From contig OZ024741.1 in NCBI GenBank assembly GCA_964016885.1, forward strand, positions 361,832,001 through 361,896,000: 64,000 nt of DNA. Reading direction: 5' to 3'. The position numbers were made by a program, and so were the translations under genes. The notes under the pieces were generated by a model that was not told the DNA's origin, did no database searches, and worked only from the letters and a program-made list of their open reading frames with translations. This DNA comes from Eledone cirrhosa (Eukaryota). Of this stretch, positions 34,181 through 64,000 are shown piece by piece; position 1 is the stretch's first letter; each line of letters begins with the position of its first letter.

Positions 34181-34787
34181 AAGACGCAGGCGTAGGATCA
34201 GTTGGCAGGAATATATTAGTGAAAGTAAAGGATCTACTGCAAGCTTAGCGGTTTCAGGTACCAGTACCGTTGATTATTAATATATATATATATACTAGCC
34301 GAATTACCTGTGTCTTGCTGCGTTTTTTGTAAGAAAAGGATGATTGATTTTAAATCAGTGATATAATTTATGGAGAAAAACTCTGCATTTCAATATTACT
34401 CAATGTAAAATGTAATGCATAAAAAATTGGAAAACATTATTTTTTGTAATATATCAAATCTGAATTACATTATTAAATCTTATTCTTATTTGGTTTCTTG
34501 TAAATAATTTTTAACAAAATATCAATTCAAAATTTTTGTGAATAGGCATCATATCTTGTCATTTACCTATGGTTTAAATTTCATATAAATTGAAGGGAAA
34601 AAATTTTCAGCGGTGGTTTGTGCCCCCGGGGAATCCTTTGATTAAAATGGAATATACTTATCCAAGTACCCTGGGCAATGTAGTTTCAGAATATATATGG
34701 TTATGGGGGTCTATCTCCAAAACCATAGGAGGAGTTTGTGAACAAACAAACAAACAGACAGGAATACAACTTTATATATATATAGAT

Positions 34788-34845
34788 ACACCTGATGATG
34801 TCACCAGGTTCATACGCAATCTGGCCACTGAAATGTGCATAGCAT
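34788..34845 (+). ncRNA. Decayed type I hammerhead ribozyme motif
   Basis: acac CTGATGA t-gt..ccag/ctgg..ac-t GAAA tgtgca TA gcat. Stem III is ATGTGCAT; stem I only pairs if the ancestor was acgc/gcgt. Confidence 0.5.
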
Positions 34846-34914
34846 TTGCAGGAATAAATAATTAAGGGAATTCAACCTGTCTGGTCTCTGTCATTTTACT
34901 TTATAATATATATA

Positions 34915-35200
34915 CATTACTGTGTCCTTCTTAACCATCACCAAGAAACCATGCTGCTGATGATTTCCTCCGAATGAAACAGTCCTGTAGAAGCAATTTC
35001 TAGATTAAATATTTATACTCTGCTATGTATTGAGTACCATACTTACTGTGGTTACCCCCCCCCCCTATTGAACCCGGGGGACACACATCTTTTAGCACAT
35101 TACTGTGCCCTTCTTAACCATCACCAAGAAACCATACTACTGATGATTTCCTCCGAATGAAACAGTTCTAGTCCTGTAGAAGCCATTTCTATATTAAATA
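34915..35200 (+). mobile_element. Retrozyme-like element, 183-bp period, about 1.5 units, between TA tracts
   Basis: tactgtg.ccttcttaaccatcaccaagaaacc...CTGATGA..GAAA is duplicated (cores at 34957 and 35140). Confidence 0.6.
35136..35172 (+). ncRNA. Minimal type I hammerhead ribozyme motif
   Basis: acta CTGATGA t-ttc-ctcc-gaa-t GAAA cagt TC tagt: stem I acta/tagt, stem II ttc/gaa closed by U.U, 1-bp stem III. Confidence 0.55.
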
Positions 35201-35204
35201 TATA

Positions 35205-35362
35205 TTATCATCATCATCACCGTTTTACATCCATTCTTCCACACTAGTATGGGTTAGATGGGTTGTCCTGTTGTGGGTAATGCCAGGTCAGGTGATTATG
35301 TCTTGCTCATGCAGAACTGATTTTGGCTTGATTTCTACAGCTGGATGCCCTTCCTAACACCA
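35205..35362 (-). mobile_element. RTE family B extreme 3' fragment
   Basis: 3' UTR terminus with (GAT)n tail, between TA tracts. Confidence 0.8.
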
Positions 35363-35417
35363 TTTGTATATATATATATATATATTAGGATTGGTGCTCT
35401 GAAATAGCGATGTATAC

Positions 35418-35507
35418 ATGAATGTATGTATAGTATATTTGGCAATATACCGTATGTTTTTAATTAAACATACGGTATATTGCCAAATATACTATACATA
35501 CATTCAT
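35418..35507. repeat. Perfect inverted repeat, 42-bp arms, 6-nt spacer
   Basis: atgaatgtatgtatagtatatttggcaatataccgtatgttt-ttaatt-aaacatacggtatattgccaaatatactatacatacattcat. Confidence 0.95.
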
Positions 35508-35712
35508 ATATATATATAGTAATAATAATTAGAAAGACCAAAATCCGAAGAGCGCCTCGATAAGGATTGTATATATATAAAAAAGTATATATAAACCCAT
35601 AGAGCAAATATCTATTATTAGAACAGATTAAAGTTTAAGCAAAGAATCGCTGCTTTTTTACGGGATCTTCTGAAACTTAGAAGATCCTGTAATAGGGCGA
35701 AAGCAGCTAATA

Positions 35713-35752
<40 letters not shown>

Positions 35753-36069
35753 ATGTACACACACGCACAAAGATATATGCAGTGACTTGTAAATGGGACC
35801 ACATGAAATCCTTTAAGAGATTTTATGCAATATAAGACAGCAGGACATTTGGTATTTCAGCAATGAACCTAATTGGTGTTTATGGATTAGAGCTTAGCAA
35901 GAATTAAATTTCAAAACTAAAATCTAATTTTAGAAACACAAATTTCAGCTTAATGACTCAATAAATAAGAATGAATGAAAGGAAGAAAGGAAGTGGGAGT
36001 GGGTGCCTTCATGTGTGTCTGTGCATATGTTTGTGTGTATGTTTGCAAGTGAACACATATGAATATGTA

Positions 36070-36235
36070 CCGTATTTCCCGGCACCGAAGACGCTTCGTC
36101 CTCAAGGATGCACCCTAATTTTGACAACCAAAAATTTGAAAAAATAATAAACAATCTTCGCCCTCCAGGACGCATGGTAGATTTTTGAGACTTATTTTAG
36201 GAAAAAAGTAGCATCTTCGATGCTGGGAAATATGG
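36070..36235. mobile_element. Tc1/mariner-pogo type MITE
   Basis: TA flanks; TIRs of about 25 bp, ccgtatttcccggcaccgaagacgc / gcatcttcgatgctgggaaatatgg. Confidence 0.8.
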
Positions 36236-36871
36236 TATATGAGTATGAATGTGGTTCATTTAGCAAAGTTATTAGAGTGGGATATTTATTCTGAGTCTCT
36301 GCATTCTGTGTTCATATCCTGTAGAGGTCCACTTTGCCTTTCACCCTTTCATGGTCGATAAAAAATGCACCAATCCAGTGCTGGTACTGTCCTTCTCCAG
36401 ATCAACAAAAGCTAAGTATAGTGGTTTATACTAAGCTAGAAACTTCTTTTGTAGTTGTCTCCCTGTGGTGCTCCTCCCTAGCATGAAACCAAACTACATC
36501 TCATCTAATTAGTTTCCAAATTAGTTGAGCTAAAACTCTTTCTGTCATTTTCATTACTTGGTCCATTAGTTTTATGCCCCTGCAATTTCTCCTTTCTGGA
36601 GCATTACATTTTCCCTTGCAGCAATTAATGAGTATACTACTTGCACCTGTCATTGGGTATGACCCTAACATATACTACCTGATTGAGTGAGATGCAGATC
36701 TCTGACCTGCCTGGAAGGTCAGCAGTCCTACTTCAGTACTGACTTTGTCTATGTAGACCTGACCAACCCTTGCTAGCAGCGAAAGTAGATGATAAAATGA
36801 TGATGATGAAAAAGTCTGTCTGGCATATGTGCATGATTATGTGTATCATCATCATTTTCCCATGCTGGCAC

Positions 36872-37876: not shown

Positions 37877-37916
<40 letters not shown>

Positions 37917-38397
37917 CAGAAGTAATGAGTTTGTATGATGCTACTTAATTTGGGTTTTTGCTTGGCTAATAAGAAAGCCTCTACATAGTCACTTAGCCTG
38001 CAAGAACTTACAGAGAAGTCCTCTTCACTATCATCATTACTCTATTGCAGTTACTGATGGTCATCCATTGCAGCTTTCATAATCAGTTGTGGTCTAATGG
38101 TTGAGTGATTATCTCTTGCCATCAGTGGGATTTGAATTCCTAGGTTGTATATGAACATTCATAATGCTTGGTTTTCTATGGATGGATGCCCTTTTTAATG
38201 CCAACCACATTACAAGATTTCCTCGGTTATAAAATTAATATTCTGAAGTATAAAGTAGCTCAAATCAATGAAAATAGTGCTGAAAAATAGTGTAATCTGC
38301 TACTTGTAGACCAATCTAGAAACCCTAAGGGAACACTGGCTACATTGGTATAGAGAAAGTGAGTGTAATGACTGAAAAATATAGAAGTAATACTTAC

Positions 38398-38562
38398 CAA
38401 TTGTTGTTACTGTTGTAACAACGAAACAGAAAGATCCAGAAAAGGTCCATCGGTTTGTCACCTGCTTTCTCTCATGGATCACGTTGAGAGCATATTGTGG
38501 ATCACTAGCAATTGATTGTAGGAATGCGGAAAGTCTATTCTTGTCGATACATGTGTGGTTTG
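38398..38562 (-). CDS. K2P potassium channel (TREK/TALK-like), internal exon: cap loop + pore helix 1
   Basis: Acceptor ctcttcctctcattacag, donor G|gtaagta; 165 nt, phase 1-1. Translates xNHTCIDKNRLSAFLQSIASDPQYALNVIHERKQVTNRWTFSGSFCFVVTTVTTIG (cap Cys, P1 helix). Splices in frame to the next exon to give TIGYG. Confidence 0.92.
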
Positions 38563-39363
38563 CTGTAATGAGAGGAAGAGAGATTACATGCAGATAAACA
38601 ACAACAACACTGCTGCCGCCACCACTGCGACCACCACCACCACTAAATCAACAAACCAACTGCTTCTAAACTTTATTTTATTTATTCTGAAATGATGAAA
38701 GCCCTGGTGGAATTTGAATTCAGAGTGCAGATAACTTGGGGCATATTCCACATTTAAGCTCTTTTGTTACCATATTTCTAATGAAAATAATCAAAAATTT
38801 GAAAGTTTTAGTAAAATAACTTTTTCATTATTAAGCTGATGTTTAGAGCATAACCTAAAATTATGATGGAAGGTTTTTAGATAAATAGACACTTTAGAAT
38901 ACAAATTTGCATCATAGAACCAAATGTGGCTTCAAGTGATTCGATATCAAAATGGTTAATCTTCTTCAACTACAACTTCACCACCTTAAATAGGGATAAA
39001 AGGGGTAGTTTATTGCAGAGAGATTAAGGGACATCAAACAGGGTTCGTATAATTCATTGTGGCTCTTGTGTATTGTCTGTACACCATTATTGTTATTTTT
39101 ATCTCTTTCCAAATGTGATACCTATATGTGTGTACCATTTTGATTTTATTTGCTGTCACACTAAGGTGAACTTTGCCTTTCATCCTTTTGGCATCCATAA
39201 AAATAACATATCAGGATTAGTGGATTAGTGGGGTTGATAAGGAATCAGAAGAGATGTTTCGTTGGTCCAATATAATGATTGATACCTTTCCTTTTCACTA
39301 TGTCTTCACTGTATATTATGAACGTGGTGGGTGTGGGGATAGAGGTAGTCAATGTATTTCTTA

Positions 39364-40830: not shown

Positions 40831-40887
40831 ATATATATAAATATATATATAACTATAAATATATATATATAAATATATATATGAATA

Positions 40888-41002
40888 TAAGTTGAAAAAA
40901 ATGAAAACGAAATTTCATTTCTCACTCTTAGTATGGCACTTACTTAAATGTAAGTATGTATGTATACGTACATACATATATGTATACAGACGTACAGTAG
41001 CA

Positions 41003-41048
<46 letters not shown>

Positions 41049-41469
41049 CAGGTACACATACATATATGCACGCATCAGTTTAGCGAACGCTTATTATAAC
41101 GCCGCTTTGTTCGTTTGTAAACAAACTGAACAGCCCGAATTTATGCCATACGGTGTTAAGGCAACCACGTCACCTTTTTGTTCAACACTGACACAGGAAC
41201 GATGTACTAGTTTCAAGCTTGTTAGCTATCATCAGCACCGTATACCCATCTACCAGATAGTTGAACGTTCGAAAGTATATACTTTCCTTATGAAAATTAA
41301 CGGCTGAGCAGCTTAATTTGCATATTGAGTGAGTTAAATCGGTCAGGCATACCGAAAACGATAAGTTGAAAAAAATGAAAACGAAATTTCATTTCTCACT
41401 CTTAGTATGGCACTTACTTAAATGTAAGTATGTATGTATACGTACATACATATATGTATACAGACATGT

Positions 41470-41470: not shown

Positions 41471-41529
<59 letters not shown>

Positions 41530-41532
<3 letters not shown>

Positions 41533-44500: not shown

Positions 44501-45158
44501 CGGCAAAGCATAAACGAACTAAGGAAAAAATTAGAAATAAGAGGGATCAGATGTTGTTTACTCGAGAGAAGGCTACGTTGGTATGGACACGTGATGCGCA
44601 TGAAAGTCGATAGCTGTATAACAAAGTGCAGGGCAATAAAGATAGACGGTAGCCACGGAATAGGCAGACCTAGAAAAACCTGGGACGAGCTGATAAACTC
44701 CGACCTCACACACTTACACCTCTCCAAGACAATGTCACTGGACCGAGACCTTTGGCGGTACTCAGTAACAGAGAAGACCCGCCTTGCCAGTAGGCATCTC
44801 TAACAAAATACACCCCGTCCCACCACCCCCACCCCCACCCCATCCACACCACCCCGTTCTATGTAAAGTTATGTTGGTGCCGCGGCATCCAGGCCGAAAC
44901 AAATGAGATCGTGTAGGTGCCACGACAAAAAAACACACAGTCCACGCTATAATGTGGCCGTGTAGGCAACACGGTAAAAACCTCCCAGACCCACACTGTA
45001 AATGTGGTTGGTGTTAGGAAGGGCATCCAACTGTAGAAAACCTGCCAGACAGTCCTATGCGAGCAAGACAATCACTCTTGCCTCAAGTGGGAATACCCCC
45101 GTCCAAACCCATGCAAGCGTGGAACACGGACGTTAAACGTTGATGATGATGATGATGA
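41530..45158 (+). mobile_element. RTE family A, nearly full length; APE-RT-PHD ORF broken only by two TGG>TGA stops
   Basis: ORFs 41816-43612, 43649-44416 and 44420-44803 are in one frame; (TA)n on both sides. Confidence 0.97.
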
Positions 45159-45484
45159 TATATATATATATACATACAGGTACACATACATATATGCACG
45201 CATCAGTTTACAAACGAACAAAGCGGCGTTATAATAAGCGTTCGCTAAACTGATGCATGCATATATGTATGTGTACCTGTATGTATATATATATATATAT
45301 ATGCATGCTACTGTACGTCTGTATACATATATGTATGTACGTATACATACATACTTACATTTATATAAATATAAATATAAATATAAATATATATATATAA
45401 ATATATATATACATATGAATGGCGTAGACATTACAAAACAATACAATACATTACAGTACAATACAATAGGAGGGAATATAATAG

Positions 45485-45729: not shown

Positions 45730-46080
45730 ATATTATTCAAAATATTAATAAATGGATACATTCACATAATCAAAATATATGTTTTATTATATATATTTCT
45801 GAGGTACTGTACTGTTTTTTCAGCATGTCCTCATCAGATAAAATACATAAATTGATGCATGACATACCTCAACTGTGGTGATGGTTCAATTTCAGTCTTC
45901 AATTACTGCCAAGAGTGAAATTGAACCATCAGCACAGTTGAGGTATGTCATGCATCAATTTATGTATTTTATCTGATGAGGACATGCTGAAAAAACAGTA
46001 CAGTACCTCAGAAATATATATAATAAAACATATATTTTGATTATGTGAATGTATCCATTTATTAATATTTTGAATAATAT
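45730..46080. repeat. Near-perfect inverted repeat, arms about 165 bp, 21-nt spacer, between TA tracts
   Basis: 45730-45894 is the reverse complement of 45916-46080. Confidence 0.95.
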
Positions 46081-46164: not shown

Positions 46165-46217
<53 letters not shown>

Positions 46218-49300: not shown

Positions 49301-50114
49301 TGTATGATGCCTGCATATGAACAGCAATGTTGCATGGCAGTGAAACCTGGGCATTGTGTGCAGAGGATATACGCAGACTAGAGAGAAACGAAGCTTGCAT
49401 GCTCCGCTGGATGTGTAATAGTAATATACGTGAACGACAAAGCATAAACGAACTAAGGAAAAAATTAGAAATAAGAGGGATCAGATGTTGTTTACTAGAG
49501 AGAAGGCTACGTTGGTATGGTCACGTGATGCGCATGAAGGACGATAGCTGTATAACAAAGTGCAGGGCAATAAAGATAGACGGTAGCCACGGAATAGGCA
49601 GACCCAGAAAAACCTGGGACGAGCTGATAAACTCCGACCTCACACACTTACACCTCACCAAGACAATGTCACTGGACCGAGACCTTTGGCGGTACTCAGT
49701 AATAGAGAAGACCCGCCTTACCTAAATACAAAGTAAAACCTACTACAGTCAGTAGGCATCTCTAACAAAATACACCCCCGTCCCACCACCCCACCCCATC
49801 CACACCGCCCCCTTCTATGTAAAGTTATGTTGGTGCCACACGATCCAGGCCGAAACAAATGAGATCGTGTAGGTGTCACGACAAAAAAACACACAGTCCA
49901 CGCTGTAATGTGGCCGTGTAGGCAACACGGTAAAAACCTCTCAGACCCACACTGTAAATGTGGTTGGTGTTAGGAAGGGCATCCAACTGTAGAAAACCTG
50001 TCAGACAGTCCTATGCGAGCAAGACAATCACTCTTGCCTCAAGTGGGAAAACCCCCGTCCAAACCAACCCATGCAAGCGTGGAACACGGACGTTAAACGT
50101 TGATGATGATGATG
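46315..50114 (+). mobile_element. RTE family A, longest copy with 5' UTR; single ORF 46495-49725 broken by two TGA stops
   Basis: ORFs 46495-47634, 47683-49320 and 49327-49725 are in frame; APE, RT YADD; PHD with one Cys>Tyr; (TA)n on both sides. Confidence 0.97.
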
Positions 50115-50214
50115 ATATATATATATATATATATATATAAAGAAAGAAAAAGGGATGAAATCGAAAATGCAACTGAAGTCTTATTTTTTTAAAAATATAT
50201 ATATTTATTTGGTT

Positions 50215-50252
50215 CCTTTACCGGTTTCGCAGTTCTTCTGCTTTTCAAAAGG
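50215..50252 (-). ncRNA. Type I hammerhead ribozyme, U3-A8 core variant
   Basis: Minus strand cctt TTGAAAA gcag-aagaa-ctgc GAAA ccgg TA aagg: perfect stems I and II, palindromic stem III ACCGGT. Confidence 0.85.
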
Positions 50253-50760
50253 TGAGTTGAGATGGAGGGTCTGTGGTTTTTCTCACATCTGGTTGGTCTC
50301 TAAATGTTACTTGTTTTATATGGAAAAACTGGCTCGAAAACCAGGTTTTTCGAGAAGTAATTTGATTGGTTTGTCAATAATTATAATAAATTTCGCGCCA
50401 GTTCGCGTTACAATAGTTCTTCAAATAAGAGAGGGGGGGTTGTCACAGGTTGTTTTTTCATATATGAGTGTTTGAATTTCTTTTTACTTGAAAAAATGAG
50501 GCTCACGAAGGCTTTTTTTTGGTTGGTTATAAATGAAATTTGGCTGTCACGTCAACAAGTTTTCATTACATTTTTGCGCCCTTATTTGGAAAACTATTCT
50601 GTAGTCTATAGTGAATGTTATGACAATGGAGAGATAGTGGTCAAGGGAAAAGGGATTGGGAGAAATGTTCTGGTTCAGTGAATATGGCCAGCTGTCAGAG
50701 TTCAGGTGTCAGAGTTCAGATTTTCTATTGAGACTGAAGATATGTGTTTATTTGTGTGCT

Positions 50761-50793
<33 letters not shown>

Positions 50794-51286
50794 ATGTGTG
50801 TATTGGAAGATGATTCTATTAGTAGAGATGGGGGAGGGAGTTGTGTGTGTGTGTATATGGGTGTTATGTGTGTGTGTGCGAGTATGTTAGATAGAGAGAA
50901 TATATATTTTTTGTGTGTGTGTATATATATATGTGTGTAGGAAAGTGGTTCTATTAGTAGAAATGGGGAGGGTGTTGTAGGTGTGGGGGTTTTTATGTGT
51001 GTGTATGGGTGTTATGTGTGTGGGAGTATGGTTAGCATGTTAAGATGAAGAGAATATATATATATATATATATATATATTGTGTGTGTGTATGTGTGTGT
51101 GTAGGAAAATGATTCCTTTAGTAGGAATATTTTTGAATGAACATATTTTCCTGACTTTTTCGTGTTTGCTGTTGTATTGCCAGTGCAAACGTATGTTTAA
51201 GGTTTATTTAGTTCGGGTTTTTATTTTCTAAAGTAGGTGTTATGTGTGTGTGTGTATGTCATATTGTGGTGTTGACATAATGTATA

Positions 51287-53557
51287 TTAAACCTTATTTA
51301 ATGTTGGTCTATATTTTTGAATAAACATATTTTCCTTATTTATTCGCATTTGTTCTGTTGTATTGTTAGCGCAAAGGTAAAATGGGAAGACTTGGAATTT
51401 GGGTGTCTTATTACTTGCGCAAATGTCTAGATGTGCACTTAGTGGTATTTGTCTCGTGGTTGGATCTCGTAATTGTTGGCGATGAACTGTCATTCTGTTT
51501 CTGAGTGTGAGTTTAGTTTGTCCTATATAATCTTCATTGCATCCTTTACATTTAATGGCATAAATTAGATTTTTTGATGAGCAAGTGAAGTGATTTTTTA
51601 CAGTAAAATTTTGTCCTGATTTAAATGTATACGTGTTGCCTTCAATGAGGTGAGTGCAGGTTCCACAATTAGAGCGACCACATTTTTTGATACTTGGTTG
51701 TGGGTTTGTGGTAGGTAATTTGGCATTGGTGAGTAATGTTTTCAGTGATTTTGGTTGTCTTTTGCTTTTGATTATTTTGTGTGTTTCAAGGGCTTTTTTC
51801 ATTCTTGGGTTTTGTTTTAGTAGTGGGATGTTATTGTGAATAGTGTTGTAAGCTTCCGCATTTCTTGGGTTGTGTGTTGAGATATATGATAGAATATTGG
51901 ACGTACCTTGAATTTGTTTCTGTTTCCGTAATTCATCAATGCCTATTGCTTTAGCCCTTTCTATTCCATTATTTATTAGTAATAGTGGGTACTCTCTCTC
52001 AAGTAGAATTTCCTTTAATTCTTGAAGTCTTTTATTTCGCGTTTCATAATTGGAGACAATTGTGCAAATTCTTCTTGCTAGGTTAAAAGGAATGTTCGTC
52101 TTCGTGTGCTTTGGATGGTTGGAGGTGAATAGCAGATATTGTTTGGAATCTGTTGGTTTGTAGTGTATGTCAGTTTCGATATTTGTGTCTTTTTTTGTGA
52201 TTAAGATGTCCAGAAATGGGAGTTGATCTTGGCTGTATTCCATTGTGAATTGGATGTGCTTATTGATGCCGTTTATTAAGTTTTTGAAATCCTTCAGTTG
52301 GTCGAGTGTGTGGGACCAAAGAATGAGGCAATCATCCAAGTAGCGTTTCCAATTCTCTGATAAATATTTGTGGAAGTTCAATCCGTATTTTGATTTGGAC
52401 TGTTCATATATCTGGACTTCTAAGTATGCCATGACTAAGTTGGCATAAGTTGGAGCGGCTTTTGTGCCCATCGCAGTCCCCGATATTTGCTTGTAAGTAT
52501 TGCCATCGAAATCAAAAAAGTTGTTCTGTAGGATGAATTTTAATCCCTCGGTGATGAAGCTTTTTTCTATTCTGTCAGGTATCTCATTGGGATATTTCTC
52601 TAGCCAGAATCCTATTGCTTCTAGTCCGTATTGGTGTGGGATCGTTGTGTAGAGATTCACTACATCGAAAGACACAATAATAGTGTCGTTGTTGACATGT
52701 TTGGGGAGGTGGTTTAAGAGGTCCAGATCGTCTCTTACAAGGCTTGGTATGTGTTTCAGTATTGGTTTCAGTAGTATGTCTATAAAGTTGCTCAATCTGT
52801 GTGTTTCACATTGTGGGCCCGCTACAATTGGTCTTAATTTAAGGTCTGTGGGGTATTGTGTGTTCACGCAGGCTGAGGTGGATTGTTTACAGGCATCGTT
52901 GATTATTTTACATTTGTGGATCTTCGGAAGTCCGTAAAGGTTGCTGGTTTTGTATTCAAAATTTGTTAAATAATCGCGTTCCTTTTTAGTTAGGTCTTCC
53001 TGGTATCGATAAATCAGTGTGTTTAATTTGGTCATTATTTTTGATTGCTGGTAGTTTTTTACTCTTTCATAGTAATTAGCATTTTGTAAGAGAGAGAACA
53101 TAGAATTTTTATATTTTTCAGCCTCCATAATGACAACAGTACTTCCCTTGTCCACTTCCTTAATTACAATGTCCGGATTGTTTTTTAGTTCATGGATAAT
53201 CTCCCATTCCCTTCGACTTGTGTTGGGTTTGGGTTTAGGTTGCGGTAGTTCATGGTATGGGAAGGTAGCTATGTGGTCACAAAATTTGTCCAGAACTCTG
53301 TTTCTACCTTTTGTTGGGTTGTAGCTGCTTTTATTCCGTACAATTGATTCGTCGTTATTCTCCTTGTCAAAGAATTCCTCTGTGAGACGTAATTTTCTAC
53401 AGAAGTGTGAGATATCGTCATTTATCTCGTTGGGGTTAGGATATTGTGGTGTTGGTGTGAATTTCAGACCTTTGGAGAGAATTTTTACTTGTTGGGCTGA
53501 GAGGTTTGTATTTGAAATGTTAATTATTTTCGGTTTTTCAAAATCGGTTTGTGCCAC
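51287..53557 (-). CDS. Penelope-like reverse transcriptase + GIY-YIG endonuclease (756 aa, uninterrupted)
   Basis: LSKGLKFTP, DKGS, YGLPKIHK, RPIV, SFDVVNLYT, GTAMG..AP.YANL, RYLDD, HYKPT, Cys-rich linker CGRSNCGTC, NLIYAIKC..C...YIGQT. Confidence 0.95.
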   Translation of the reverse strand: MAQTDFEKPKIINISNTNLSAQQVKILSKGLKFTPTPQYPNPNEINDDISHFCRKLRLTEEFFDKENNDESIVRNKSSYNPTKGRNRVLDKFCDHIATFPYHELPQPKPKPNTSRREWEIIHELKNNPDIVIKEVDKGSTVVIMEAEKYKNSMFSLLQNANYYERVKNYQQSKIMTKLNTLIYRYQEDLTKKERDYLTNFEYKTSNLYGLPKIHKCKIINDACKQSTSACVNTQYPTDLKLRPIVAGPQCETHRLSNFIDILLKPILKHIPSLVRDDLDLLNHLPKHVNNDTIIVSFDVVNLYTTIPHQYGLEAIGFWLEKYPNEIPDRIEKSFITEGLKFILQNNFFDFDGNTYKQISGTAMGTKAAPTYANLVMAYLEVQIYEQSKSKYGLNFHKYLSENWKRYLDDCLILWSHTLDQLKDFKNLINGINKHIQFTMEYSQDQLPFLDILITKKDTNIETDIHYKPTDSKQYLLFTSNHPKHTKTNIPFNLARRICTIVSNYETRNKRLQELKEILLEREYPLLLINNGIERAKAIGIDELRKQKQIQGTSNILSYISTHNPRNAEAYNTIHNNIPLLKQNPRMKKALETHKIIKSKRQPKSLKTLLTNAKLPTTNPQPSIKKCGRSNCGTCTHLIEGNTYTFKSGQNFTVKNHFTCSSKNLIYAIKCKGCNEDYIGQTKLTLRNRMTVHRQQLRDPTTRQIPLSAHLDICASNKTPKFQVFPFYLCANNTTEQMRINKENMFIQKYRPTLNKV

Positions 53558-54516
53558 CGGGTGTCGTGAGTCCTGTAGCCTTGGTCTAAAAAATGATTTT
53601 TCTGGAATGTTTTTTCATTGGTATTATTATATCTAATGGTATTTCCCCTGTTGTTGTGTGGTCTTGTATAGAAGTTTCGGACGTATTGAGGTTCGGTTTG
53701 TTGATAGTCCGGGTTGTAGATTTGGTTCCTTTGTGTGGGTTGGGATCTATGGTTTTGGAACAGGCTCTGTGTGGGCAGGGGTCTACGGTTTTGGAATAGG
53801 TTTTGTGTGGGTTGTGATCTGCGGATCAGGTCCTGCCTTGTGTTCGGGGATCTTTGGTTTTTGTTAGTAGGGTTATAGTTTTGTCTATGGTTTCTGGGAT
53901 TATCGTTATAGTTTTGCTGGGGGTATGTTGGACGTTTTGTTACTTTTTTTGTTATTTGTTGTGCATGTGGTGTGTGAGTTTTAGTTTGTTTTAAAAATGG
54001 GTTACCTGTATGTTGTTCATTTTTGAAGTCCATTTCGTAGTTGTTGAACCAGGTGGCGTTTTTTTCCCATCGCTGGAGGGATGTGAGTTCTTCATCCTCA
54101 CAGTTTTCTTTCCAAAGTTTTAGGGTTTTTTTGTAGAGTAGGCCTTCAGAGTGCTTTGAGATTTCTGTGTCCATCTGTTGGTCGAGTGACTTGAATTTTT
54201 CTTCGTTGGAGTTGGCTCTTAATCGCAACAGTTCTATTTCTGTTTTAAATTTTTCCAATGCCATCTTTTCCCTAAGTCTTTGTTGGTTTTCTGGTTCATT
54301 CGGGATGGGTTTTATTTGGAGTTTTTTGGGGAGGATGATTGGGGTAGAGTTTAGCCACTTTTCATATATGTCTGCCTTGCCATTATTTTTTAGGAGATTC
54401 CAAAGGGCGAATTTGCGGGCTGTGAGCTTTTGAGTCCATATGTTGATTAGGGTGTTTTTCACTGAGTGGACATCTCGTAGATTGGGTTCTAACGGTTGTT
54501 CAAGCTTTTGGAGCAT
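53524..54516 (-). CDS. Upstream ORF of the Penelope-like element (coiled-coil-like plus Q/N/R-rich), 5'-truncated
   Basis: 330-aa open frame overlapping the RT ORF, which lies in the -1 frame; charged helical segment QQRLREKMALEKFKTEIELLRLRANSNEEKFKSLDQQM. Confidence 0.75.
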   Translation of the reverse strand: MLQKLEQPLEPNLRDVHSVKNTLINIWTQKLTARKFALWNLLKNNGKADIYEKWLNSTPIILPKKLQIKPIPNEPENQQRLREKMALEKFKTEIELLRLRANSNEEKFKSLDQQMDTEISKHSEGLLYKKTLKLWKENCEDEELTSLQRWEKNATWFNNYEMDFKNEQHTGNPFLKQTKTHTPHAQQITKKVTKRPTYPQQNYNDNPRNHRQNYNPTNKNQRSPNTRQDLIRRSQPTQNLFQNRRPLPTQSLFQNHRSQPTQRNQIYNPDYQQTEPQYVRNFYTRPHNNRGNTIRYNNTNEKTFQKNHFLDQGYRTHDTRWHKPILKNRK

Positions 54517-54611
54517 TGTTGTTTCAATGGTTTCGATTAGCTTAGTTAATACTGGAGTAATATTCGTCTCTTGGGTATTTTCTGTTTCTTCGTATATTTA
54601 TATATATATAT

Positions 54612-54704
<93 letters not shown>

Positions 54705-54740
54705 TATATATAAATATATATATAAATATATATATATATA

Positions 54741-55660
54741 TTAAGACAGGGGGGAAGAAAAAATGGCTTCACTTGTGCTTTCAACAAATTTATTTTCTTC
54801 ACAAAATCCAAAAAGAATTTTTTTCCGGATTAGAAAAAATTTTTTTGTTAAAAAAAATTATTTTATAAATTAAGTTGTTGGTTGTTGGTTAGGTCTTAGG
54901 AGTTCTTGGTTAACGTAGGGGGTATTGTTTCGTTTTTAGAACGACCTTTCACGCTGAGGTGCGCTTGTCAAACTGATGTGTATGTGGTGTGTTGTTCTAT
55001 ATATAGGGATTTAACATGTCTGTGGTGTGGTGGGGGTTTCTTTTCTCCCCCTTTAATAAGTGCATGGGTGTAGGTGTGTTGAAAAAGTGTTGAAGTGTTG
55101 AAAAAGTGTTAATAGCAGTAATGAGTTGCCTGTGACCATTCTCAACACAAAAGGAATACTAAAAGCTTTTTCCCCTGAACAAAGGAATTTTTCGAGAATG
55201 ACCGGGGCAGGCCGCACTTGCTACATTTCTCCCCACCCAACCCTACTCACCGTCTCAACTCATTACTGCTATTAACACTTTTTCAACACACCTACACCCA
55301 TGCACTTATTAAAGGGGGAGAAAAGAAACCCCCACCACACCACAGACATGTTAAATCCCTATATATAGAACAACACACCACATACACATCAGTTTGACAA
55401 GCGCACCTCAGCGTGAAAGGTCGTTCTAAAAACGAAACAATACCCCCTACATTAACCAAGAACTCCTAAGACCTAACCAACAACCAACAACTTAATTTAT
55501 AAAATAATTTTTTTTAATAAAAATTTTTTTCTAATCCGGAAAAAAATTCTTTTTGGATTTTGTGAAGAAAATAAATTTGTTGAAAGCACAAGTGAAGCCA
55601 TTTTTTCTTACCCCCTGTCTTAATATACCTAACTGTACCAAGGATTACACACATTTTCCA
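54741..55660. mobile_element. Non-coding pLTR-like element with inverted arms of about 370-390 bp, between TA tracts
   Basis: 54741-55129 is the reverse complement of 55256-55625. Each arm has a TATA-like tatatatag and a TTGACAA-gcgc/gcgt-GAAA motif. Confidence 0.75.
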
Positions 55661-55900
55661 ATATATATATATATATATCTGTATTTCTAACCGTTGGTCA
55701 ATCAATGATAAACGTTGATTGCCAAATAAATTAACTATGGAGATATAAAAGATACAGAAGCGAAAACCAACCAACAGTGAGTGTGTTCTGTTATCATTTC
55801 TGGCAATATTATTACAACAATAAGACCCTCCCCAAGTATAACAATGTTTGTTTCGACACACGATTTCATATCAAAAACCTTGCAAAACAAATATATAGAT

Positions 55901-56500
55901 ATATATAAGAAAGTAAGTCCATAGAATCATTTGATAAATATATATAGTATTTCTTCTCCCAATCAGCATAATTAACCACACAAAAAATCAATTAAACGAG
56001 GCTATAAGTTTAAAATGTACTTATGAAGAAACAATAGATAAATAAATGATAGCTATTTCATCCGTGATCAACAGCCACAGAAGATTTACCTAGTATTTCT
56101 AATAGCCGTAGAAATCGCTTTTTGGAAATATCCGATTATGGATAAATTCACGAGTTTCGTAATCATCAGGAAACAAACTCAAACCTTACGGGGTAGAGAC
56201 ATCATTTTGGTATGTTTATGTACATTTTTTCTTCTAACTTTGATTTTGTACCTAATTGTGTATGGTTGGCTATATGTCTAATCAATTTCTACGGCTATTA
56301 GAAATACTAGGTAAATCTTCTGTGGCTGTTGATCGCGGATAAAATAGCTATCATTTATTTATCTATTGTTTCTTCATAGGTACATTTTAAACTTATAGCC
56401 TCATTTAATTGATTTTTTGTGTGGTTAATTATGCTGATTGGGAGAAGAAATACTGTATATATTTTATCAAATGATTCTATGGACTTACTTTCTTATATAT
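55901..56500. repeat. Inverted repeat, arms about 215 bp, spacer about 170 bp
   Basis: 55901-56115 versus 56285-56500, slightly diverged. Confidence 0.92.
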
Positions 56501-56589
56501 TGCTCTGATTGTTGATTATTTAATTAATTAATTCGTCATTGAGCCACACCATGAATAGTTGCCAAAAACACATATATATATCTATGGCT

Positions 56590-57900
56590 CTGTCTAGTTT
56601 ATGTATATGTAAATCTATATATTTACACTATGTACATTCACGCTCTAACCACCCTGGTTCTATACTCAAAAACTTAGTATATAACATATCTCTTAGACTT
56701 TCTAAATTATCTTCCAATGATGATATATTTTATAAAAATACACCCTTCTACAACGAGGCCCTAACTAGAAGTATATATAAAGAAAAAATTTCATATATTC
56801 CCAACACTACTATGGACCATACTACAAAACCTAGCAAAAACTACAAACACCAAAAAATACCATCGAAACAAATGCCTAATGGGGTCATTCTTATCACACC
56901 AAACAACCGAAAAACCACAACTATTACTACACGATCTATGACCAATGTTAACAACTTACATATGACTACCAAACATTCAACCTCTCATAATCTACCCAAT
57001 AATAACACCAAATAAAACCACTGCAATTTACCAAAATCCACAAATAAAAAATACCAAACATAGGAACTCTTCTAGAACACAGCACATTAATATAAGTGAG
57101 AATAAGAACTTAACTAAAAACCGCAAAAGAAACATAACATGGTACAACGCACCCTTCAACCTGCAAACTATTGGACAAATCCCCAAAACATTCTTCGAAA
57201 TTCTACACAAACATTTTCCACCAAACCACAGATACCATCAAATATTTAACAGGTATACTGTTAAATTCTCATACTCTATATCAAACAATCTCCAACAGAA
57301 AATAAGCAACTACAACATTTATAAATTTAAAAATAATATGACCACACCACCACAACATAATTTAAATAAGACTTCACCTTTTAAAAGGACAAATAATACA
57401 ATTCTTCAACTGGAAAACACAACCACCGAAATCACCAACACAAAAATAACATAACACAAAATCACAATACAACCCCAGTACTAAATCAGCCACAAAGCAG
57501 CACTCATTCTCTCTCTAGCATTAATTACAATAAGAATAGCTCCAGGATTAATGAGAATTATGTAGGTACTTCCAACAACCATCTTACGTATGGTTGTAAT
57601 TGCAGAAATAGAAGCGTTTGCCCCTTAAATGGCAACTGTTTGATTAATAATGTAATATATAAATGCACTGTGTCTACTACTGACTCCAACAAATCGTATA
57701 TAGGATCTACATCGAACACATTTAAGAAAAGATATTACGCACACTCCAGTAGCTTTAACAATACTAAACTAGCTAACACCACATCTTTAGTTGAAGCAGT
57801 AAATAACTATAAAAAGAAAAAAATAGATTTCAAGCTATCGTGGGATACCATTCTACAAAGAACTCCATATCCTGGGAACAGGAGAGAATGTAGATTATGT
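56590..57900 (+). mobile_element. Second Penelope-like element (Nematis-like), decayed 3' half
   Basis: YVHSRSNHP, RLSKLSS, RKRNITWYNAPF, KHFPPNHRYHQIFNR, CNCR..CPLNGNC, VIYKC...YIGST (GIY-YIG), CRLC. Clade name is from memory of these motifs. Confidence 0.85.
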
Positions 57901-57954
57901 GGTTTTTCTCACATCTGATGTGAGAAAAATCACAGACACTCCATCTCAACTCTA

Positions 57955-57991
57955 CTTTTGAAAAGCAGAAGAACTGCGAAACCGGTAAAGG
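57955..57991 (+). ncRNA. Type I hammerhead ribozyme, U3-A8 variant (copy of 50215-50252)
   Basis: ctt TTGAAAA gcag-aagaa-ctgc GAAA ccgg TA aag. Confidence 0.8.
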
Positions 57992-58052
57992 AACCAAATA
58001 AATATATATATTTTTTTAAAAATAAGATCCCAGTTGCATTTTTGATTTCATC

Positions 58053-58097
<45 letters not shown>

Positions 58098-58099
<2 letters not shown>

Positions 58100-58821
58100 G
58101 CAGACTAGAGAGGAACGAAGCTTGCATGCTCCGCTGGATGTGTAACAGTAATATACGTGAACGGCAAAGCATAAACGAACTAAGGAAAAAATTAGAGATA
58201 AGAGGGATCAGATGTTGTTTACTCGAGAGAAGGCTGCGTTGGTATGGACACGTGATGCGCATGAAAGTCGATAGCTGTATAACAAAGTGCAGGGCAATAA
58301 AGATAGACGGTAGCCACGGAATAGGCAGACCTAGAAAAACCTGGGATGAGCTGATAAACTCCGACCTCACACACTTACACCTCTCCAAGACAATGTCACT
58401 GGACCGAGACCTTTGGCGGTACTCAGTAACAGAGAAGACCCGCCTTGCCAGTAGGCATCTCCAACAAAATACACCCCGTCCCGCCACCACCCCCACTCCA
58501 TCCACACCACCCCGTTCTATGTAAAGTTATGTTGGTGCCGCGGCATCCAGGCCGAAACAAATGAGATCGTGTAGGTGTCACGACAAAAAACACACAGTCC
58601 ACGCTGTAATGTGGCCGTGTAGGCAACACGGTAAAAACCTCCCAGACCCACACTGTAAATGTGGTTGGTGTTAGGAAGGGCATCCAACTGTAGAAAACCT
58701 GCCAGACAGTCCTATGCGAGCAAGACAATCACTCTTGCCTCAAGTGGGACTACCCCCGTCCAAACCCATGTAAGCATGGAACACGGACGTTAAACGTTGA
58801 TGATGATGATGATGATGATGA
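58098..58821 (+). mobile_element. RTE family A 3' fragment
   Basis: RRLERNEACMLRWMC...GRPRKTW, 3' UTR, (GAT)n tail; TA tracts on both sides. Confidence 0.93.
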
Positions 58822-58916
58822 TATATAAATATATATATATAAATATATATAAATATATATATATAAACATATATAAATATATATATATAAACATATATAA
58901 ATATATATATATAAAT

Positions 58917-58949
<33 letters not shown>

Positions 58950-58964
58950 AATATATATAAATAT

Positions 58965-59873
58965 ATACTATATTATATTTAGAGATTAAACTCATAGTCG
59001 TTTACAATTAATCAGCTCAAAGAAAGAGGCATTTCTGAGCAGTGAAATACAAGTTATATATTAATATATATGATAAACACAAAACGTGTTTGTATTGTAA
59101 GAGACAAAGTTAGCTAGCATGAAATAAACTAATTAAAGTGAATACAATTTGTCTGTCTCGATATAAGTCAATAAAGACAAGCTTATATTGGCAAAATCTG
59201 TGATTCCTGGACAAATTTAAATTTCAAAATCCAAACCCGCTCCGTAGATGAATTTGAACTCCGAAACCCAAATATGTTTCACAACGATGGTACATGAATT
59301 GAAAAATAAAGAGAATCGAAATGGAATTGAAATAAAAAGTGAAATATCCAAATCTTCTGTGCTTATCAACAGGAATCCAGTAAAATTAGTACATTCCACC
59401 TTCAAAAATTTTGCAGGTCTGATTACACGTGGTGTAGCCAGCTATACTAGCCATCCCGTATTCCCGGTGCTAGAAATAACAGCCTTTTATACGGGATTAA
59501 AGATCAGCTCTACAGTTAAGGAGCAATATACTATATTATATTTAGAGATTAAACTCATAGTCGTTTACAATTAATCAGCTCAAAGAAAGAGGCATTTCTG
59601 AGCAGTGAAATACAAGTTATATATTAATATATATGATAAACACAAAACGTGTTTGTATTGTAAGAGACAAAGTTAGCTAGCATGAAATAAACTAATTAAA
59701 GTGAATACAATTTGTCTGTCTCTATATAAGTCAATAAAAACAAGCTTATATTGGCAAAAGCCATGATTCCTGGACAAATTTAAATTTCAAAATCCAAACC
59801 CACTCCGTAACTTTGTCTCTTACAATACAAACACGTTTTGTGTTTATCATATATATTAATATATAACTTGTAT
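58965..59873 (-). mobile_element. Non-coding element: 563-bp unit + direct repeat of about 280 bp + inverted piece of about 65 bp, in (TA)n
   Basis: ctatattatatttagagattaaac at 58968 and 59531; 59809-59873 is an inverted copy of internal sequence. Confidence 0.82.
59267..59373 (-). ncRNA. Possible decayed U3-A8 hammerhead with long stem II insert
   Basis: Minus strand cctg TTGATAA gca...(about 75 nt)...tgt GAAA cata TT tggg; the stems rely on G.U pairs. Confidence 0.4.
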
Positions 59874-59916
59874 AAATATATATATATAAATATATATATA
59901 AATATATATAAATATT

Positions 59917-59948
<32 letters not shown>

Positions 59949-59960
59949 AATATATATATA

Positions 59961-62568
59961 AAGCCTTCCCTAGAACTAGACGAACCTGGAAAAAGAGGCC
60001 AACCTGGAGAAGAAAGATCTGGAAGCTGAAAGATCCCTCAACCAGTAACAGATTTAAAGATATTTTACTCAACGCCTACGACAGTAAAGAAGAACAGATA
60101 GAGACATTCAATGTAGAAGAGAACTGGGAGTTCCTAAAAAATAATTTACTAGAGGCAACGGATGAGGTCTGTAGCTGGAGTAAGACCTCAAGCAGGAGGA
60201 GAGTGACTTGGTGGTGGAAAAATAAGGTAGATGAAGCAGTTAAGGCCAAGAGACAGGCATGGAAAGAATGGAAGAATGGGGGGAGCAGGGTACATTACAT
60301 AGAGACCAAGAGGGAAGCTAGGCGACAAGTATACTTAGCTAGGAGGGAAGCAGAGGATAGAAAATTCAAGCATGTTTTGCAACGTGAGGACCAGAAACAG
60401 GAGGTGTTCAAGATTGCGAGGAAGTGTGTCAGAGATAGTTGTGATGTCATTGGAGAGAAGTGTATCCGGAATGATAAAGGTGAGTTTGCCCTCACAAGTG
60501 CTGAGAAGAAAGATGCATGGAAGAGTCATTATGATAGATTACTAATGAGGAGAATGCATGGGAAGAAGAGACGCTACCCCAAGTAGACCCTATAGAGGGG
60601 CCAGCAGTACAAGTCAGCAGCAACGTAGTAAGTAAGGCAATCAAAGATATGAAGATGGGGAAGGCAACCGGTCCATCGGGTATAGCTGTCGAGATGCTGA
60701 AGGCATCTGGGTCTGTAGGTTGCACTATAACCACATGTATTGTTAACCAGGTAATACTAGAAGGTGTCATACCAAAAGATTGGTGCAGTAGCATCATTGT
60801 CAACTGCTACAAAGGTAAAGGTGATGCACTAGATAGAGGAAACTATAGAGGTATAAAGTTGATGGACCAGGTCATGAAAGTAACAGAAAGAGTTATAGCA
60901 CAGTTGATTAGGGACCGGGTGAAAATAGACGAGATGCAATTTGGGTTTGTACCAGGAAGAGGCACCACTGATGCCCTCTTCCTTGTGAGGCAGTTACAGG
61001 AAAAGTACCTAACTAAAAGTAAGCCACTCTACTTGGCATTTGTCGACCTTGAGAAAGCCTTTGACAGAGTTCCACGTGCTGTAATCTGGTGGGCTCTTAG
61101 AAAACTAGGAGTAGATGAATGGCTTGTGAAAGCGGTACAAGCCATGTATAGGGGAGCAGTCAGCAAAGTTAGGATTAGCAATGAGTATAGCGAGGAATTT
61201 AGCGTACAGGTTGGGGTCCACCAGGGCTCTGTTCTTAGCCCCCTCCTGTTCATGATAGTCCTGCAGGCAATAACGGAGGAGTTTAAGACCGGATGCCCAT
61301 GGGAACTCCTGTATGCAGATGACCTCACACTTATAGCTGAATCTATGGTAGAACTAGAGAATAAATTCCAAACTTGGAAGCAGGGACTAGAAAGAAAGGG
61401 TCTCAAAGTCAACATGACAAAGACTAAGGTCCTTGTAAGTAGACGAGAAAACAGAACCCAGATCCCCCCAGGGAAATGGCCTTGCTCAGTATGTAGGAAA
61501 GGTGTAGGTAGGAACTCCATTCTCTGCCCTAAATGCAAACAATGGGTACACAAGAGATGTAGCGGGATCTCAGGAAGCTTAATTAAGAATGTAGGCTTCA
61601 CATGCAGCAGCTGTGCTGGGACAGCAAGCAGCAAACAGCCACAGGAAACAAGTACCACCAATCTCTGGGAGGGCTCTGTAGAAACAGTAGACAGCTTCTG
61701 CTACCTAGGTGACCGAATTAGCAGCGAAGGTGGGTGTTCAGAAAGTACAATAACTAGGGTAAGAACGGAATGGAAGAAATTCAGGGAGCTACTGCCACTG
61801 CTAGCTGCAAAAGGCTTTTCCCTCAAAATGAAGAGCAGACCGTATGATGCGTGTATACGAACAGCAATGTTACATGGTAGTGAGACCTGGGCACTGAAGG
61901 TGGAAGACTTATGTAGATTAGAAAGAAACGAAGCCTGCATGCTCCGATGGATGTGTAATAGTAATATACGTGAACGGCAAAGCATAAATGAATTGAGAGA
62001 GAGACTGAGCATAAGAGGAATCAAATGCTGTGTGCAGGAGAGGTGGTTGCGTTGGTATGGACATGTGATGCATATGAAGGATGACAGCTGCATAAAAAGG
62101 TGCAAAGCACTAGAAGTCAATGGAAACCGTGCAGTGGGGAGACCCAAGATGACCTGGGATGAGGTGATAAAAGCCGACCTTACCCAATTACACCTCTCAA
62201 AGGCAATGACACACGACCGTGACCTCTGGCATCACGCAGTAATACAGAGTACCCGACCTCCCATGGGTACAAGCTGAAGCATATAGACAATATGCCCCCA
62301 CACCCCCCACCGCAAGGTGGTCGTGGAGGTGCCACGGCAAAAAAGCACCCAGCCACACTGTAAAGTGGACGTGTAGGCGCCACAAAAAAGCACCCAGCAC
62401 TCACTGTAAATGAGGTTGGTGTTAGGAAGGGTACCCAGCTGTAGAAATCAAGCCAAATCAGTTCCTGTATGAGCAAGGCAGACCAGACACTGCCCACAAC
62501 AGGACAACCCATCTAACCCATGCTAGCGTGGAAGAACGGACGTAAAACGGTGATGATGATGATGATGA
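59961..62568 (+). mobile_element. RTE family B, 5'-truncated; open 542-aa RT-PHD-C-terminal ORF (60649-62277)
   Basis: ORF track, complete 3' UTR, (GAT)n tail, TA tracts on both sides. Confidence 0.96.
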
Positions 62569-62670
62569 TATATATAAATATATATATATAAATATATATA
62601 TATAAATATATATATATAAATATATATATATAAATATATATATATAAATATATATATATAAATATATATA

Positions 62671-63231
62671 TAATCAAGGTTTAGCAAATAAGAAAAAGTT
62701 TCAAAATAAATTTTAAAAAATTAACTTTACTCACTATGGTTACCTTTACCGAATCGGTTTCGAGTCTCAAAAATAAATGGACAGTCCTTACGGCATCCAT
62801 TGCAAACATAAACTCTCGTCAGAAGGATCTTTTCACTCGGAGAATATAAAATTCCTGAGTTAAAATTACGAACTGGCGCTATTCAAAATTGTTCCCGAGA
62901 TGAGAATAAATGAAGTGGAAGCAATTCCTTCAAGTGCCGTGTGTAAAGATAGAAGCAAAGGCAGGGAGGTCAGTCTACTACCACTGTAACTAGCAGCAGT
63001 CCGAACGACCAAATTTTTTTCTCGACCAAGAGGAGAATAATAATAAAGTATATATCCCTACACGCACAAAGCGCTTAGGGACACATGTATTGTCCAACCA
63101 TATGCCAATGTGGTTCAATGGCAGGTTAATAAATTAACGAGCCAGAACATATATAATCAAGGTTTAGCAAATAAGAAAAAGTTTCAAAATAAATTTTTTT
63201 AAATTAACTTTACTCACTATGGTTACCTTTA

Positions 63232-63233
<2 letters not shown>
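62671..63233 (-). mobile_element. Retrozyme-like element: 483-bp unit + 80-bp terminal direct repeat, in (TA)n
   Basis: 62671-62750 repeats at 63154-63233; no ORF; contains a complete hammerhead. Confidence 0.85.
62743..62826 (-). ncRNA. Type I hammerhead ribozyme with extended stem II
   Basis: Minus strand cctt CTGACGA gagt...(internal atgga/tccat hairpin)...actc GAAA ccgattcgg TA aagg. Confidence 0.88.
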
Positions 63234-63269
<36 letters not shown>

Positions 63270-63283
63270 TTCACCATACCGAG

Positions 63284-63328
<45 letters not shown>

Positions 63329-63333
<5 letters not shown>

Positions 63334-63954
63334 ATTATGAAGAGAGAAGAAACATTAGATATAATTAGTAATAAGATGTATCATACCTAAACTGCTTCTA
63401 AATTCCTCGACTACGTAGTTTCGTGGCATAATCAAAAACAATACATCACAGAGATATATAATTTTTGTGAGGTCTGCCGACTTATCAAGTGTGTCCGCAT
63501 GTATCTGTGTGTTTCTCTATATATTGTTTATAACTCCCTTTGGTCGAGTAACCCTTGAAGTGTAGTGACTGCTGGAAAGCTGCCATTACTCATACTTCTT
63601 GCCTCCTTAACCACCTCTTCTACGGCCTCGATATAAATACCCCCTCCGCCTCCGTGGTATTTTTTTCAGGGTTATAAGAGGCTTAGCTCTGTTTCATGAC
63701 CGCTGTATCACGTGATTGACTCCCCCTCCGCCTTTTGGGATTCTATCTCGCATCTTACAGACGTGTTTATGAAATCCTTAATGAGGTATCCTCTTGATAA
63801 GTCGGCAGACCTCACAAAAGCTCTATATCTCTATGATGTATTGTTTTTGATTATGCCACGAAACTACGTAGTCGAGGAATTTAGAAGCAGTTTAGGTATG
63901 ATACATCTTATTACTAATTATATCTAAATGTTTCTTCTCTCTTAATAATGTACT
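63329..63954. mobile_element. Non-coding element with inverted arms of about 160 bp that contain a hammerhead
   Basis: 63329-63489 is the reverse complement of 63793-63954; starts at a TA tract; may continue past the window end. Confidence 0.82.
63789..63878 (+). ncRNA. Type I hammerhead ribozyme, U3-A8 variant with long stem II
   Basis: tcctc TTGATAA gt-c-ggca...tgcc-ac GAAA ctacgtag TC gagga: 5-bp stem I, palindromic stem III ACTACGTAGT, GUC cleavage triplet. Confidence 0.87.
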
Positions 63955-64000
63955 TTATAGCTCTGATACTGGTTCAGTCTAATCCATTCGGATTGGTTTG

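What the first reader, a model, noticed from the sequence alone, without database searches (positions are those of the whole stretch)
34780..63960. Cluster of unrelated, ORF-less, hammerhead-bearing mini-retroelements associated with (TA)n microsatellites
Seen: at least six non-coding inserts (34915, 40888, 54741, 58965, 62671, 63329) share no primary sequence that I can see but share an architecture: bounded by TA tracts, one unit plus a partial direct repeat (units of 183, 474, 563 and 483 bp) and/or an inverted arm, and a type I hammerhead motif of varying quality, usually with a tiny palindromic stem III. Established: Penelope-like elements carry minimal type I hammerheads in their pLTRs and insert as tandem or inverted structures; metazoan non-LTR retrozymes are short hammerhead repeats thought to be mobilised by PLEs through circular RNA. 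Inference: these are diverse non-autonomous ribozyme retroelements using the GIY-YIG/RT machinery of PLEs such as the one at 50139-54595. I cannot tell whether these families are already described.
Basis: partly seen in the sequence, partly recalled or inferred. Interest (0 to 1): 0.9.

Follow-up and report, generated by a model that had tools for sequence, protein, structure and literature searches.

The report
Hammerhead retrozymes bearing Penelope insertion signature
Four of the six inserts are abundant protein-less tandem repeats carrying a predicted self-cleaving hammerhead RNA, and their two-armed copies end at the same kind of paired sites as Penelope-like retrotransposons, so they are likely RNA circles copied into (TA)n tracts by Penelope enzymes; the other two are pieces of ordinary Penelope elements.

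Summary
The six inserts are real, mutually unrelated, and all belong to multi-copy families in a 3.0-Gb animal genome. Four (40888, 58965, 62671, 63329; units of 474, 563, 483, 593 bp) occur only as ORF-less tandem units with a type I hammerhead motif (clear in three, atypical in 58965): non-LTR retrozymes, a known kind.

What adds something: two-armed (inverted) insertions end at two fixed sites, one arm short and one with a 37-165 nt tail. This holds in 61 of 62 score-selected pairs over six families, two autonomous PLEs included, and 19 of 19 position-selected pairs. Units and arms of one insertion are near-clonal (0.2% versus 2.9% between loci). This is genomic evidence for PLE mobilisation from one, likely circular, template. 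Cleavage, expression and circles are untested.

The parts
40887..41465 (-). Family A retrozyme: one 474-bp unit plus partial upstream unit; start sites at unit 416 and 474
41199..41241 (-). Type I hammerhead of A (C3-G8, stem I 6 bp, palindromic stem III CUAG)
58963..59873 (-). Family C retrozyme: 1.5 units of 563 bp (end at 563) plus inverted arm 59808-59873 starting at unit 479
59267..59373 (-). Atypical minimal hammerhead of C (U3-A8, 82-nt stem II insert, stem I 4 bp with U.G/U-A variation, no stable stem III)
   Evidence: not the minimum-energy fold
62666..63233 (-). Family B retrozyme: one 483-bp unit plus 85 bp
62743..62826 (-). Type I hammerhead of B (54-nt stem II, stem III CCGAUUCGG); the minimum-energy fold matches
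63324..64000 (+). Family D retrozyme: inverted arm 63324-63489 (short end) plus 593-bp unit ending beyond the window at about 64119 (tail end)
63790..63877 (+). Type I hammerhead of D (U3-A8, 59-nt stem II, palindromic stem III CUACGUAG)
   Evidence: 7260 exact matches of its 3' 26 bases genome-wide
34914..35205 (+). 1.6 copies of a 183-bp deletion derivative of an autonomous PLE (pLTR joined to ORF start); cores at 34957 and 35140 lack stem I
54737..55662 (+). 5'-truncated 3' UTR of an autonomous Neptune-type PLE with inverted arm (short end left, 37-nt tail right); hammerhead-like core 55390-55425
50139..54597 (-). Young Neptune-type PLE (ORF1 53524-54597, 5'-truncated; RT-GIY-YIG ORF2 51287-53614; U3-A8 hammerhead 50215-50252): candidate helper
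57898..58057 (+). 5'-truncated 3' end of the same Neptune family, hammerhead 57954-57991

Best explanation
Families A-D are non-LTR retrozymes: ORF-less 474-593 nt units with a predicted type I hammerhead that are likely processed to monomeric RNA circles and likely reverse-transcribed into (TA)n tracts by the RT/GIY-YIG protein of Penelope-like elements. Shown: tandem whole units, fixed 3' ends and variable 5' ends, TA flanks, near-clonal units and arms within an insertion, and two recurrent end sites of which a two-armed insertion uses one on each arm, as in two autonomous PLE families here. Inferred: transcription through an array; hammerhead cleavage (as dimers, through palindromic stem III) and ligation; cutting of both strands of a (TA)n tract; each DNA end priming on the same RNA at a different start site (short and tail), helped by a few bases of TA match; rolling-circle synthesis of up to several units; end-to-end joining of the two cDNAs. 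When one end primes, a simple 5'-truncated tandem results. Units 34915 and 54741 are pieces of autonomous PLEs inserted by the same route; 34915 shows how a mini-unit can arise by deleting the ORF between ORF start and pLTR.
For: Tandem architecture and end maps; 73-87% relatives are also whole tandem units. No copy of A-D seen to run from unit into a PLE ORF in about 150 loci. Hammerheads above chance, with stem-preserving changes in diverged A and B copies. One short and one long end: A 12/12, C 22/22, B 4/5, D 12/12, 54741 family 5/5, Neptune PLE 6/6, position-selected D 19/19. Differences within an insertion are mostly private: alleles shared with other loci 0-0.36% within versus 1.1-5.8% between; 0.02-0.03% versus 1.54% in the position-selected D set, with up to 5.9+2.7 units. 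TATATA within 15 bases of the left end in 31/36 and right end in 34/36 versus 7.5% background. Circular folds of A, C, D are 5.8-8.2 SD below shuffles. Tail and two RT start sites are PLE-specific in vitro (PMC11167929).
Against: No RNA evidence of cleavage, expression or circles. 5' ends do not pile up at the cleavage site (B: 2 of about 28 within 4 nt; A: none). The anole PLE hammerhead was dispensable in vitro and its start sites had no target homology (PMC11167929); 8 of 9 frog retrozyme dimers did not cleave (bioRxiv 2026.07.22.740005). The C motif cannot form stem III even as a dimer. TA match at start sites is only 1-7 nt, 1-2 nt at three of ten sites. No sequence link from A-D to any PLE held here, so the helper is unidentified. 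Young homogeneous linear arrays would also give near-clonal units. One B copy (L046) lies 157 nt behind a decayed PLE ORF. Top-40 DNA searches favour whole units and could hide a parent PLE.
Confidence: 0.7

Rival explanations
1. PLE-mobilised but through linear, uncleaved read-through transcripts of existing arrays; the hammerheads are protein-binding or vestigial and no circle is made.
For: No 5' ends at the cleavage site; hammerhead dispensable for the anole PLE in vitro (PMC11167929); weak motif in C.
Against: Arrays of 4-7.6 units with near-zero inherited differences between units; 5' truncation would erode linear arrays each round (inference); 64 of 73 D motifs keep the whole core and stems.
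Confidence: 0.15
2. The two end sites are endonuclease cut sites, not RT start sites: a DNA intermediate of the element is resolved by staggered GIY-YIG cuts at TA-like motifs and then integrated. This concerns the end rule only and is compatible with the retrozyme identity.
For: Craig et al. ascribe the tail to EN-mediated resolution (PMC8557442, passages); both sites are TA-like, as the target is.
Against: In vitro the tail boundaries coincide with two RT start sites (PMC11167929); arms point outwards from the centre as expected if both target ends prime.
Confidence: 0.2
3. All six are only truncated or deleted pieces of autonomous PLEs, tandemised locally at the DNA level, with no mobility of their own.
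For: True for 54741 and for the origin of 34915, where several independent deletion junctions exist; top-40 searches are biased.
Against: A-D copies are dispersed, each with fresh ends and TA flanks; none of 36 position-selected D loci or 7 insertions in unselected stretches runs into an ORF; no PLE protein remnant in the units.
Confidence: 0.08
4. The units are SINE-like passengers of the abundant RTE LINEs of this region.
For: RTE LINEs are dense here and abut the same TA tracts.
Against: No (TGA)n tail as on the RTE copies; inverted arms start at fixed 3' sites as in the PLEs, not at internal twin-priming points; no tRNA-like head in Rfam.
Confidence: 0.04

Closest known systems
Metazoan non-LTR retrozymes (Cervera and de la Pena 2020, PMC7229834, passages seen; Li, Clavereau, Pollet 2026, bioRxiv 10.64898/2026.07.22.740005, parts 1-3 of 5 read)
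   Same: ORF-less low-GC tandem repeats, one type I hammerhead per unit, strongly self-paired, coexisting with PLEs; PLE mobilisation and circular template proposed there.
   Different: Units 474-593 nt (170-400 nt in the 2020 paper; within the 51-972 range of the preprint); PLE-type U3-A8 and long-stem-II motifs; (TA)n targeting, inverted second arms and two exclusive end sites, which I did not see described for retrozymes in the text read; estimated motif count about twice the axolotl's 126,247, under a different descriptor.
Penelope-like elements, Neptune clade (Cervera and de la Pena 2014, PMC4209133, parts 1-2 of 4; Craig et al. 2021, PMC8557442, passages)
   Same: Hammerhead near the 3' end, U3-A8 variant, partial tandems, inverted 5' copies, (TA)n targets, tail often at one end only, ORF1 frameshift.
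   Different: A-D have no ORF; tails are 58-165 nt rather than 30-40; one-end-only is near-absolute here.
Poseidon element PAc of green anole in vitro (Frangieh et al. 2024, PMC11167929, parts 1-2 of 4)
   Same: Two internal RT start sites bounding the tail; both DNA strands cut and extended; AT-rich target.
   Different: PAc start sites have no target homology and no strand preference was seen; here most sites carry short TA matches and the two arms use different sites.
Non-autonomous Chlamys elements such as MRC1 (PMC8557442, passage)
   Same: Non-autonomous PLE derivatives in multicopy head-to-tail insertions.
   Different: Those share 3' sequence with autonomous families and the clade lacks canonical hammerheads; no such parent was found for A-D.

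Membership tests
non-LTR retrozyme | Short tandem unit without ORF | tested here: met
   A-D; not met for 54741; 34915 carries an ORF start
non-LTR retrozyme | One type I hammerhead per unit, in at least two consecutive units | tested here: met
   A, B, D; C only under a loose descriptor
non-LTR retrozyme | Dispersed multi-copy insertions | tested here: met
non-LTR retrozyme | Self-cleavage in vitro | not testable with these tools
   Stem III can pair between copies for A, B, D, not C; no assay
non-LTR retrozyme | Expressed as linear and circular monomer RNA | tested here: inconclusive
   No RNA holder listed; only contigs of unknown library type
non-LTR retrozyme | Target-site duplication, when present, longer than 4 bp | not testable with these tools
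   Both flanks are (TA)n; empty sites not available
autonomous PLE (Neptune type), window 50139-54597 | RT plus C-terminal GIY-YIG with CxxxxCxxC linker | tested here: met
   Pfam RVT_1 (just under cut-off) and GIY-YIG; linker read from the translation; clade named from the motif, no tree built
autonomous PLE, units A-D | RT-EN ORF attached to the repeat | tested here: not met
   search not exhaustive
autonomous PLE, units 54741 and 34915 | Repeat continuous with an RT-EN ORF in longer copies | tested here: met
   54741: 4 of 4; 34915: 7 of 25 loci run into an ORF, 3 of them 40-50% like a divergent PLE protein
PLE-mobilised sequence | Partial tandems, inverted arm, tail at one end | tested here: met

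The most novel reading that the evidence does not exclude
PLE integration is an asymmetric two-ended reaction: one protein complex cuts a (TA)n tract and primes both DNA ends on one RNA circle at two different sites, each used once, so two rolling-circle cDNAs grow outwards and are joined. This would explain the PLE tail and inverted pLTR together and tie retrozymes mechanistically to PLEs, in a genome holding about a quarter-million hammerheads in dozens of families.
Probability: 0.4. Interest if true: 0.8.

Novelty: new member of a known kind. Interest (0 to 1): 0.58.

Why it matters
Which element mobilises animal retrozymes, whether the template is a circle, and how PLEs make their tail and inverted ends are open questions; the papers read offer co-occurrence, pLTR similarity and one in vitro system. 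These families supply thousands of young natural products with mapped start sites, a young intact candidate helper, and short RNAs suited to an in vitro priming assay. The window cluster itself is unremarkable.

Tried and rejected
Rfam: no ribozyme match in three scans; it also misses the clear hammerheads, so it is uninformative. RNA: no RNA holder listed; four contig sets laid on unit B show variants and the tandem junction only, one from a second organism. Enrichment of 5' ends at the cleavage site: not seen. Homology of A-D to PLE proteins or PLE-linked hammerhead flanks: none. First automated end count was invalid for A and C because the anchors matched microsatellites; redone. Cluster as a special locus: rejected. 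Phage collection: no match to ORF2. Earlier findings: none. Literature searches found no description of these families or of strict end exclusivity; Repbase, Dfam, subscription journals and bioRxiv supplements were not seen and may hold them. Organism not determined; an octopod is my guess from recalled features.

Full report
Setting. The window is G000:C2:361832001-361896000 of a 3.0-Gb animal assembly, rich in RTE LINEs and (TA)n tracts. The organism was not determined.

Observation. Self-comparison gives the stated direct repeats (183, 474, 563, 483 bp) and inverted arms. The units share no significant sequence. A strict type I hammerhead descriptor finds 6 motifs in the window against 0.17 in shuffles: in 40888 (A), 62671 (B), 63329 (D, U3-A8 core), the PLE 3' end, and a palindrome at 45782-46028. 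58965 (C) and 54741 (F) carry only minimal motifs with no stable stem III; both descriptors were loosened after inspection. In 34915 (E) the window cores lack stem I, which many relatives keep. Rfam finds none of these.

The cluster is background. Forty 10-kb stretches at round coordinates on large contigs hold 34 strict motifs of many types, 5.4 per 64 kb, extrapolating to about 2.5x10^5 genome-wide (bootstrap 1.4-3.7x10^5). A occurs in 5, D in 2, E in 6, B and C in 0 of the 40. The 3' 26 bases of the D ribozyme match exactly 7260 times.

Two units are PLE pieces. F copies share upstream sequence through a microsatellite-rich UTR, and 4 of 4 long copies followed reach a GIY-YIG ORF, one also an RT ORF. 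E relatives read hammerhead, TA junction, then an ORF start in 7 of 25 loci (output partly cut), 3 of which match a divergent PLE-type protein at 40-50%. The window copy joins that ORF start directly to the ribozyme core, and five other loci show four other junctions.

Four units are retrozymes. In 30 A, 30 B, 39 C and 25 D score-selected loci (some overlapping) and 36 position-selected D loci, copies are partial-plus-whole tandems, up to about 7.6 units, with fixed 3' ends and scattered 5' ends; none was seen to run into an ORF. One 5'-truncated B copy lies 157 nt behind a decayed PLE ORF, and one A copy behind another PLE's end and a TA tract; I read both as nested insertions. Relatives at 73-87% are still whole tandem units, and diverged A and B ribozymes keep their stems through changes. 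Top-40 searches favour whole units, so a rare parent PLE is not excluded; none of the PLE-linked ribozymes held resembles A-D.

The end rule. Each family has two recurrent 3' ends: A 416/474, B 483/+100-109, C 479/563, D 426-433/593, F short/+37, and the Neptune PLE short/+66. The tail is the sequence that follows in the tandem; in the PLE it leads into the 5' UTR and ORF1. In two-armed insertions the arms use different sites: A 12 of 12, C 22 of 22, B 4 of 5, D 12 of 12 after dropping one duplicate row, F 5 of 5, PLE 6 of 6 (its A and C rows were invalid and were redone). C is biased by the query, but A and D show both arrangements. To remove score bias I took 37 D loci from the first 100 position-ordered matches on C1, chosen by spacing, and dropped one near-duplicate. 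Of 22 two-armed insertions, 19 have both ends at a site and all 19 differ (one ends 12 nt short of the tail site); 3 have one end elsewhere (read by eye). TATATA lies within 15 bases of 31/36 left and 34/36 right ends against 7.5% background. Start sites match (TA)n over 1-7 bases, modest support for priming by pairing.

One template. Within an insertion, units and arms differ mostly by private changes; alleles shared with other loci make up 0-0.36% against 1.1-5.8% between loci, and 0.02-0.03% against 1.54% in the position-selected set. Both arms therefore come from one unit variant. A monomeric circle read by rolling circle is the simplest source; young homogeneous linear arrays remain possible. 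5' ends do not cluster at the cleavage site, which fits a ligated circle and also an uncleaved transcript.

Helper. The Neptune-type element at 50139-54597 has an open RT-GIY-YIG frame and copies 98-100% alike, and follows the same end rule. Other PLE families exist, so the helper is not assigned.

Comparison. Non-LTR retrozymes, their circles and proposed PLE dependence are published (PMC7229834, passages; bioRxiv 2026.07.22.740005, parts 1-3 of 5). Minimal and U3-A8 hammerheads in PLEs and more-than-unit copying from circles were proposed in PMC4209133 (parts 1-2 of 4). Tail at one end, inverted copies, (TA)n targets and the ORF1 frameshift are in PMC8557442 (passages). Two RT start sites bounding the tail are in PMC11167929 (parts 1-2 of 4). 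An octopus repeat paper does not mention ribozymes (PMC13282606, passages); PMC8969392 (passages) says retrozymes may rely on PLEs. Eight searches found no account of these families or of strict exclusivity; repeat databases were not available.

Verdict. New members of a known kind in an ordinary stretch of an extremely hammerhead-rich genome. The added value is a quantified PLE signature in ORF-less retrozymes and a testable two-start, one-template model. No RNA-level step was tested.

Noticed in passing
window 53524-53614 (-); L162:2215-2305: Neptune ORF1 and ORF2 overlap in the -1 frame, with a U UUU UUA heptamer in frame in two different elements; an ORF1 frameshift with pseudoknot is already noted in PMC8557442.
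   Followed up: partly
   Followed up: partly
window 25921-25953 (-), 35653-35676 (-); L003: PLE-linked hammerhead variant with A at core position 4 (CAGAAGA) and a long stem III, in 9 loci.
   Followed up: partly
window 45158-45363: Small palindromic fragment of family A without the ribozyme.
   Followed up: no
window 55670-57918: Decayed divergent PLE with an inverted 5' part (55901-56115 versus 56285-56500), ended by the Neptune 3' end at 57898.
   Followed up: no
L109, L069, L105, L006: Further tandem hammerhead families in flanks; 83 motif types among 346 hits in the loci held.
   Followed up: no
L270, L263, L269, L265, L259: In some two-armed D insertions the inner ends of both arms fall at nearly the same unit position, giving near-perfect palindromes.
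   Followed up: no
window 30876-31286 (-), 38300-38647 (-): Exon-like frames resembling a two-pore potassium channel (recalled likeness); the inserts may lie in or near its introns.
   Followed up: no
window 50100-50139, 58790-58965, 62560-62671: RTE LINE copies end in (TGA)n followed directly by (TA)n, and PLE-type inserts sit in those tracts.
   Followed up: no
window 12354-13514: 79-bp minisatellite, 14.7 copies.
   Followed up: no
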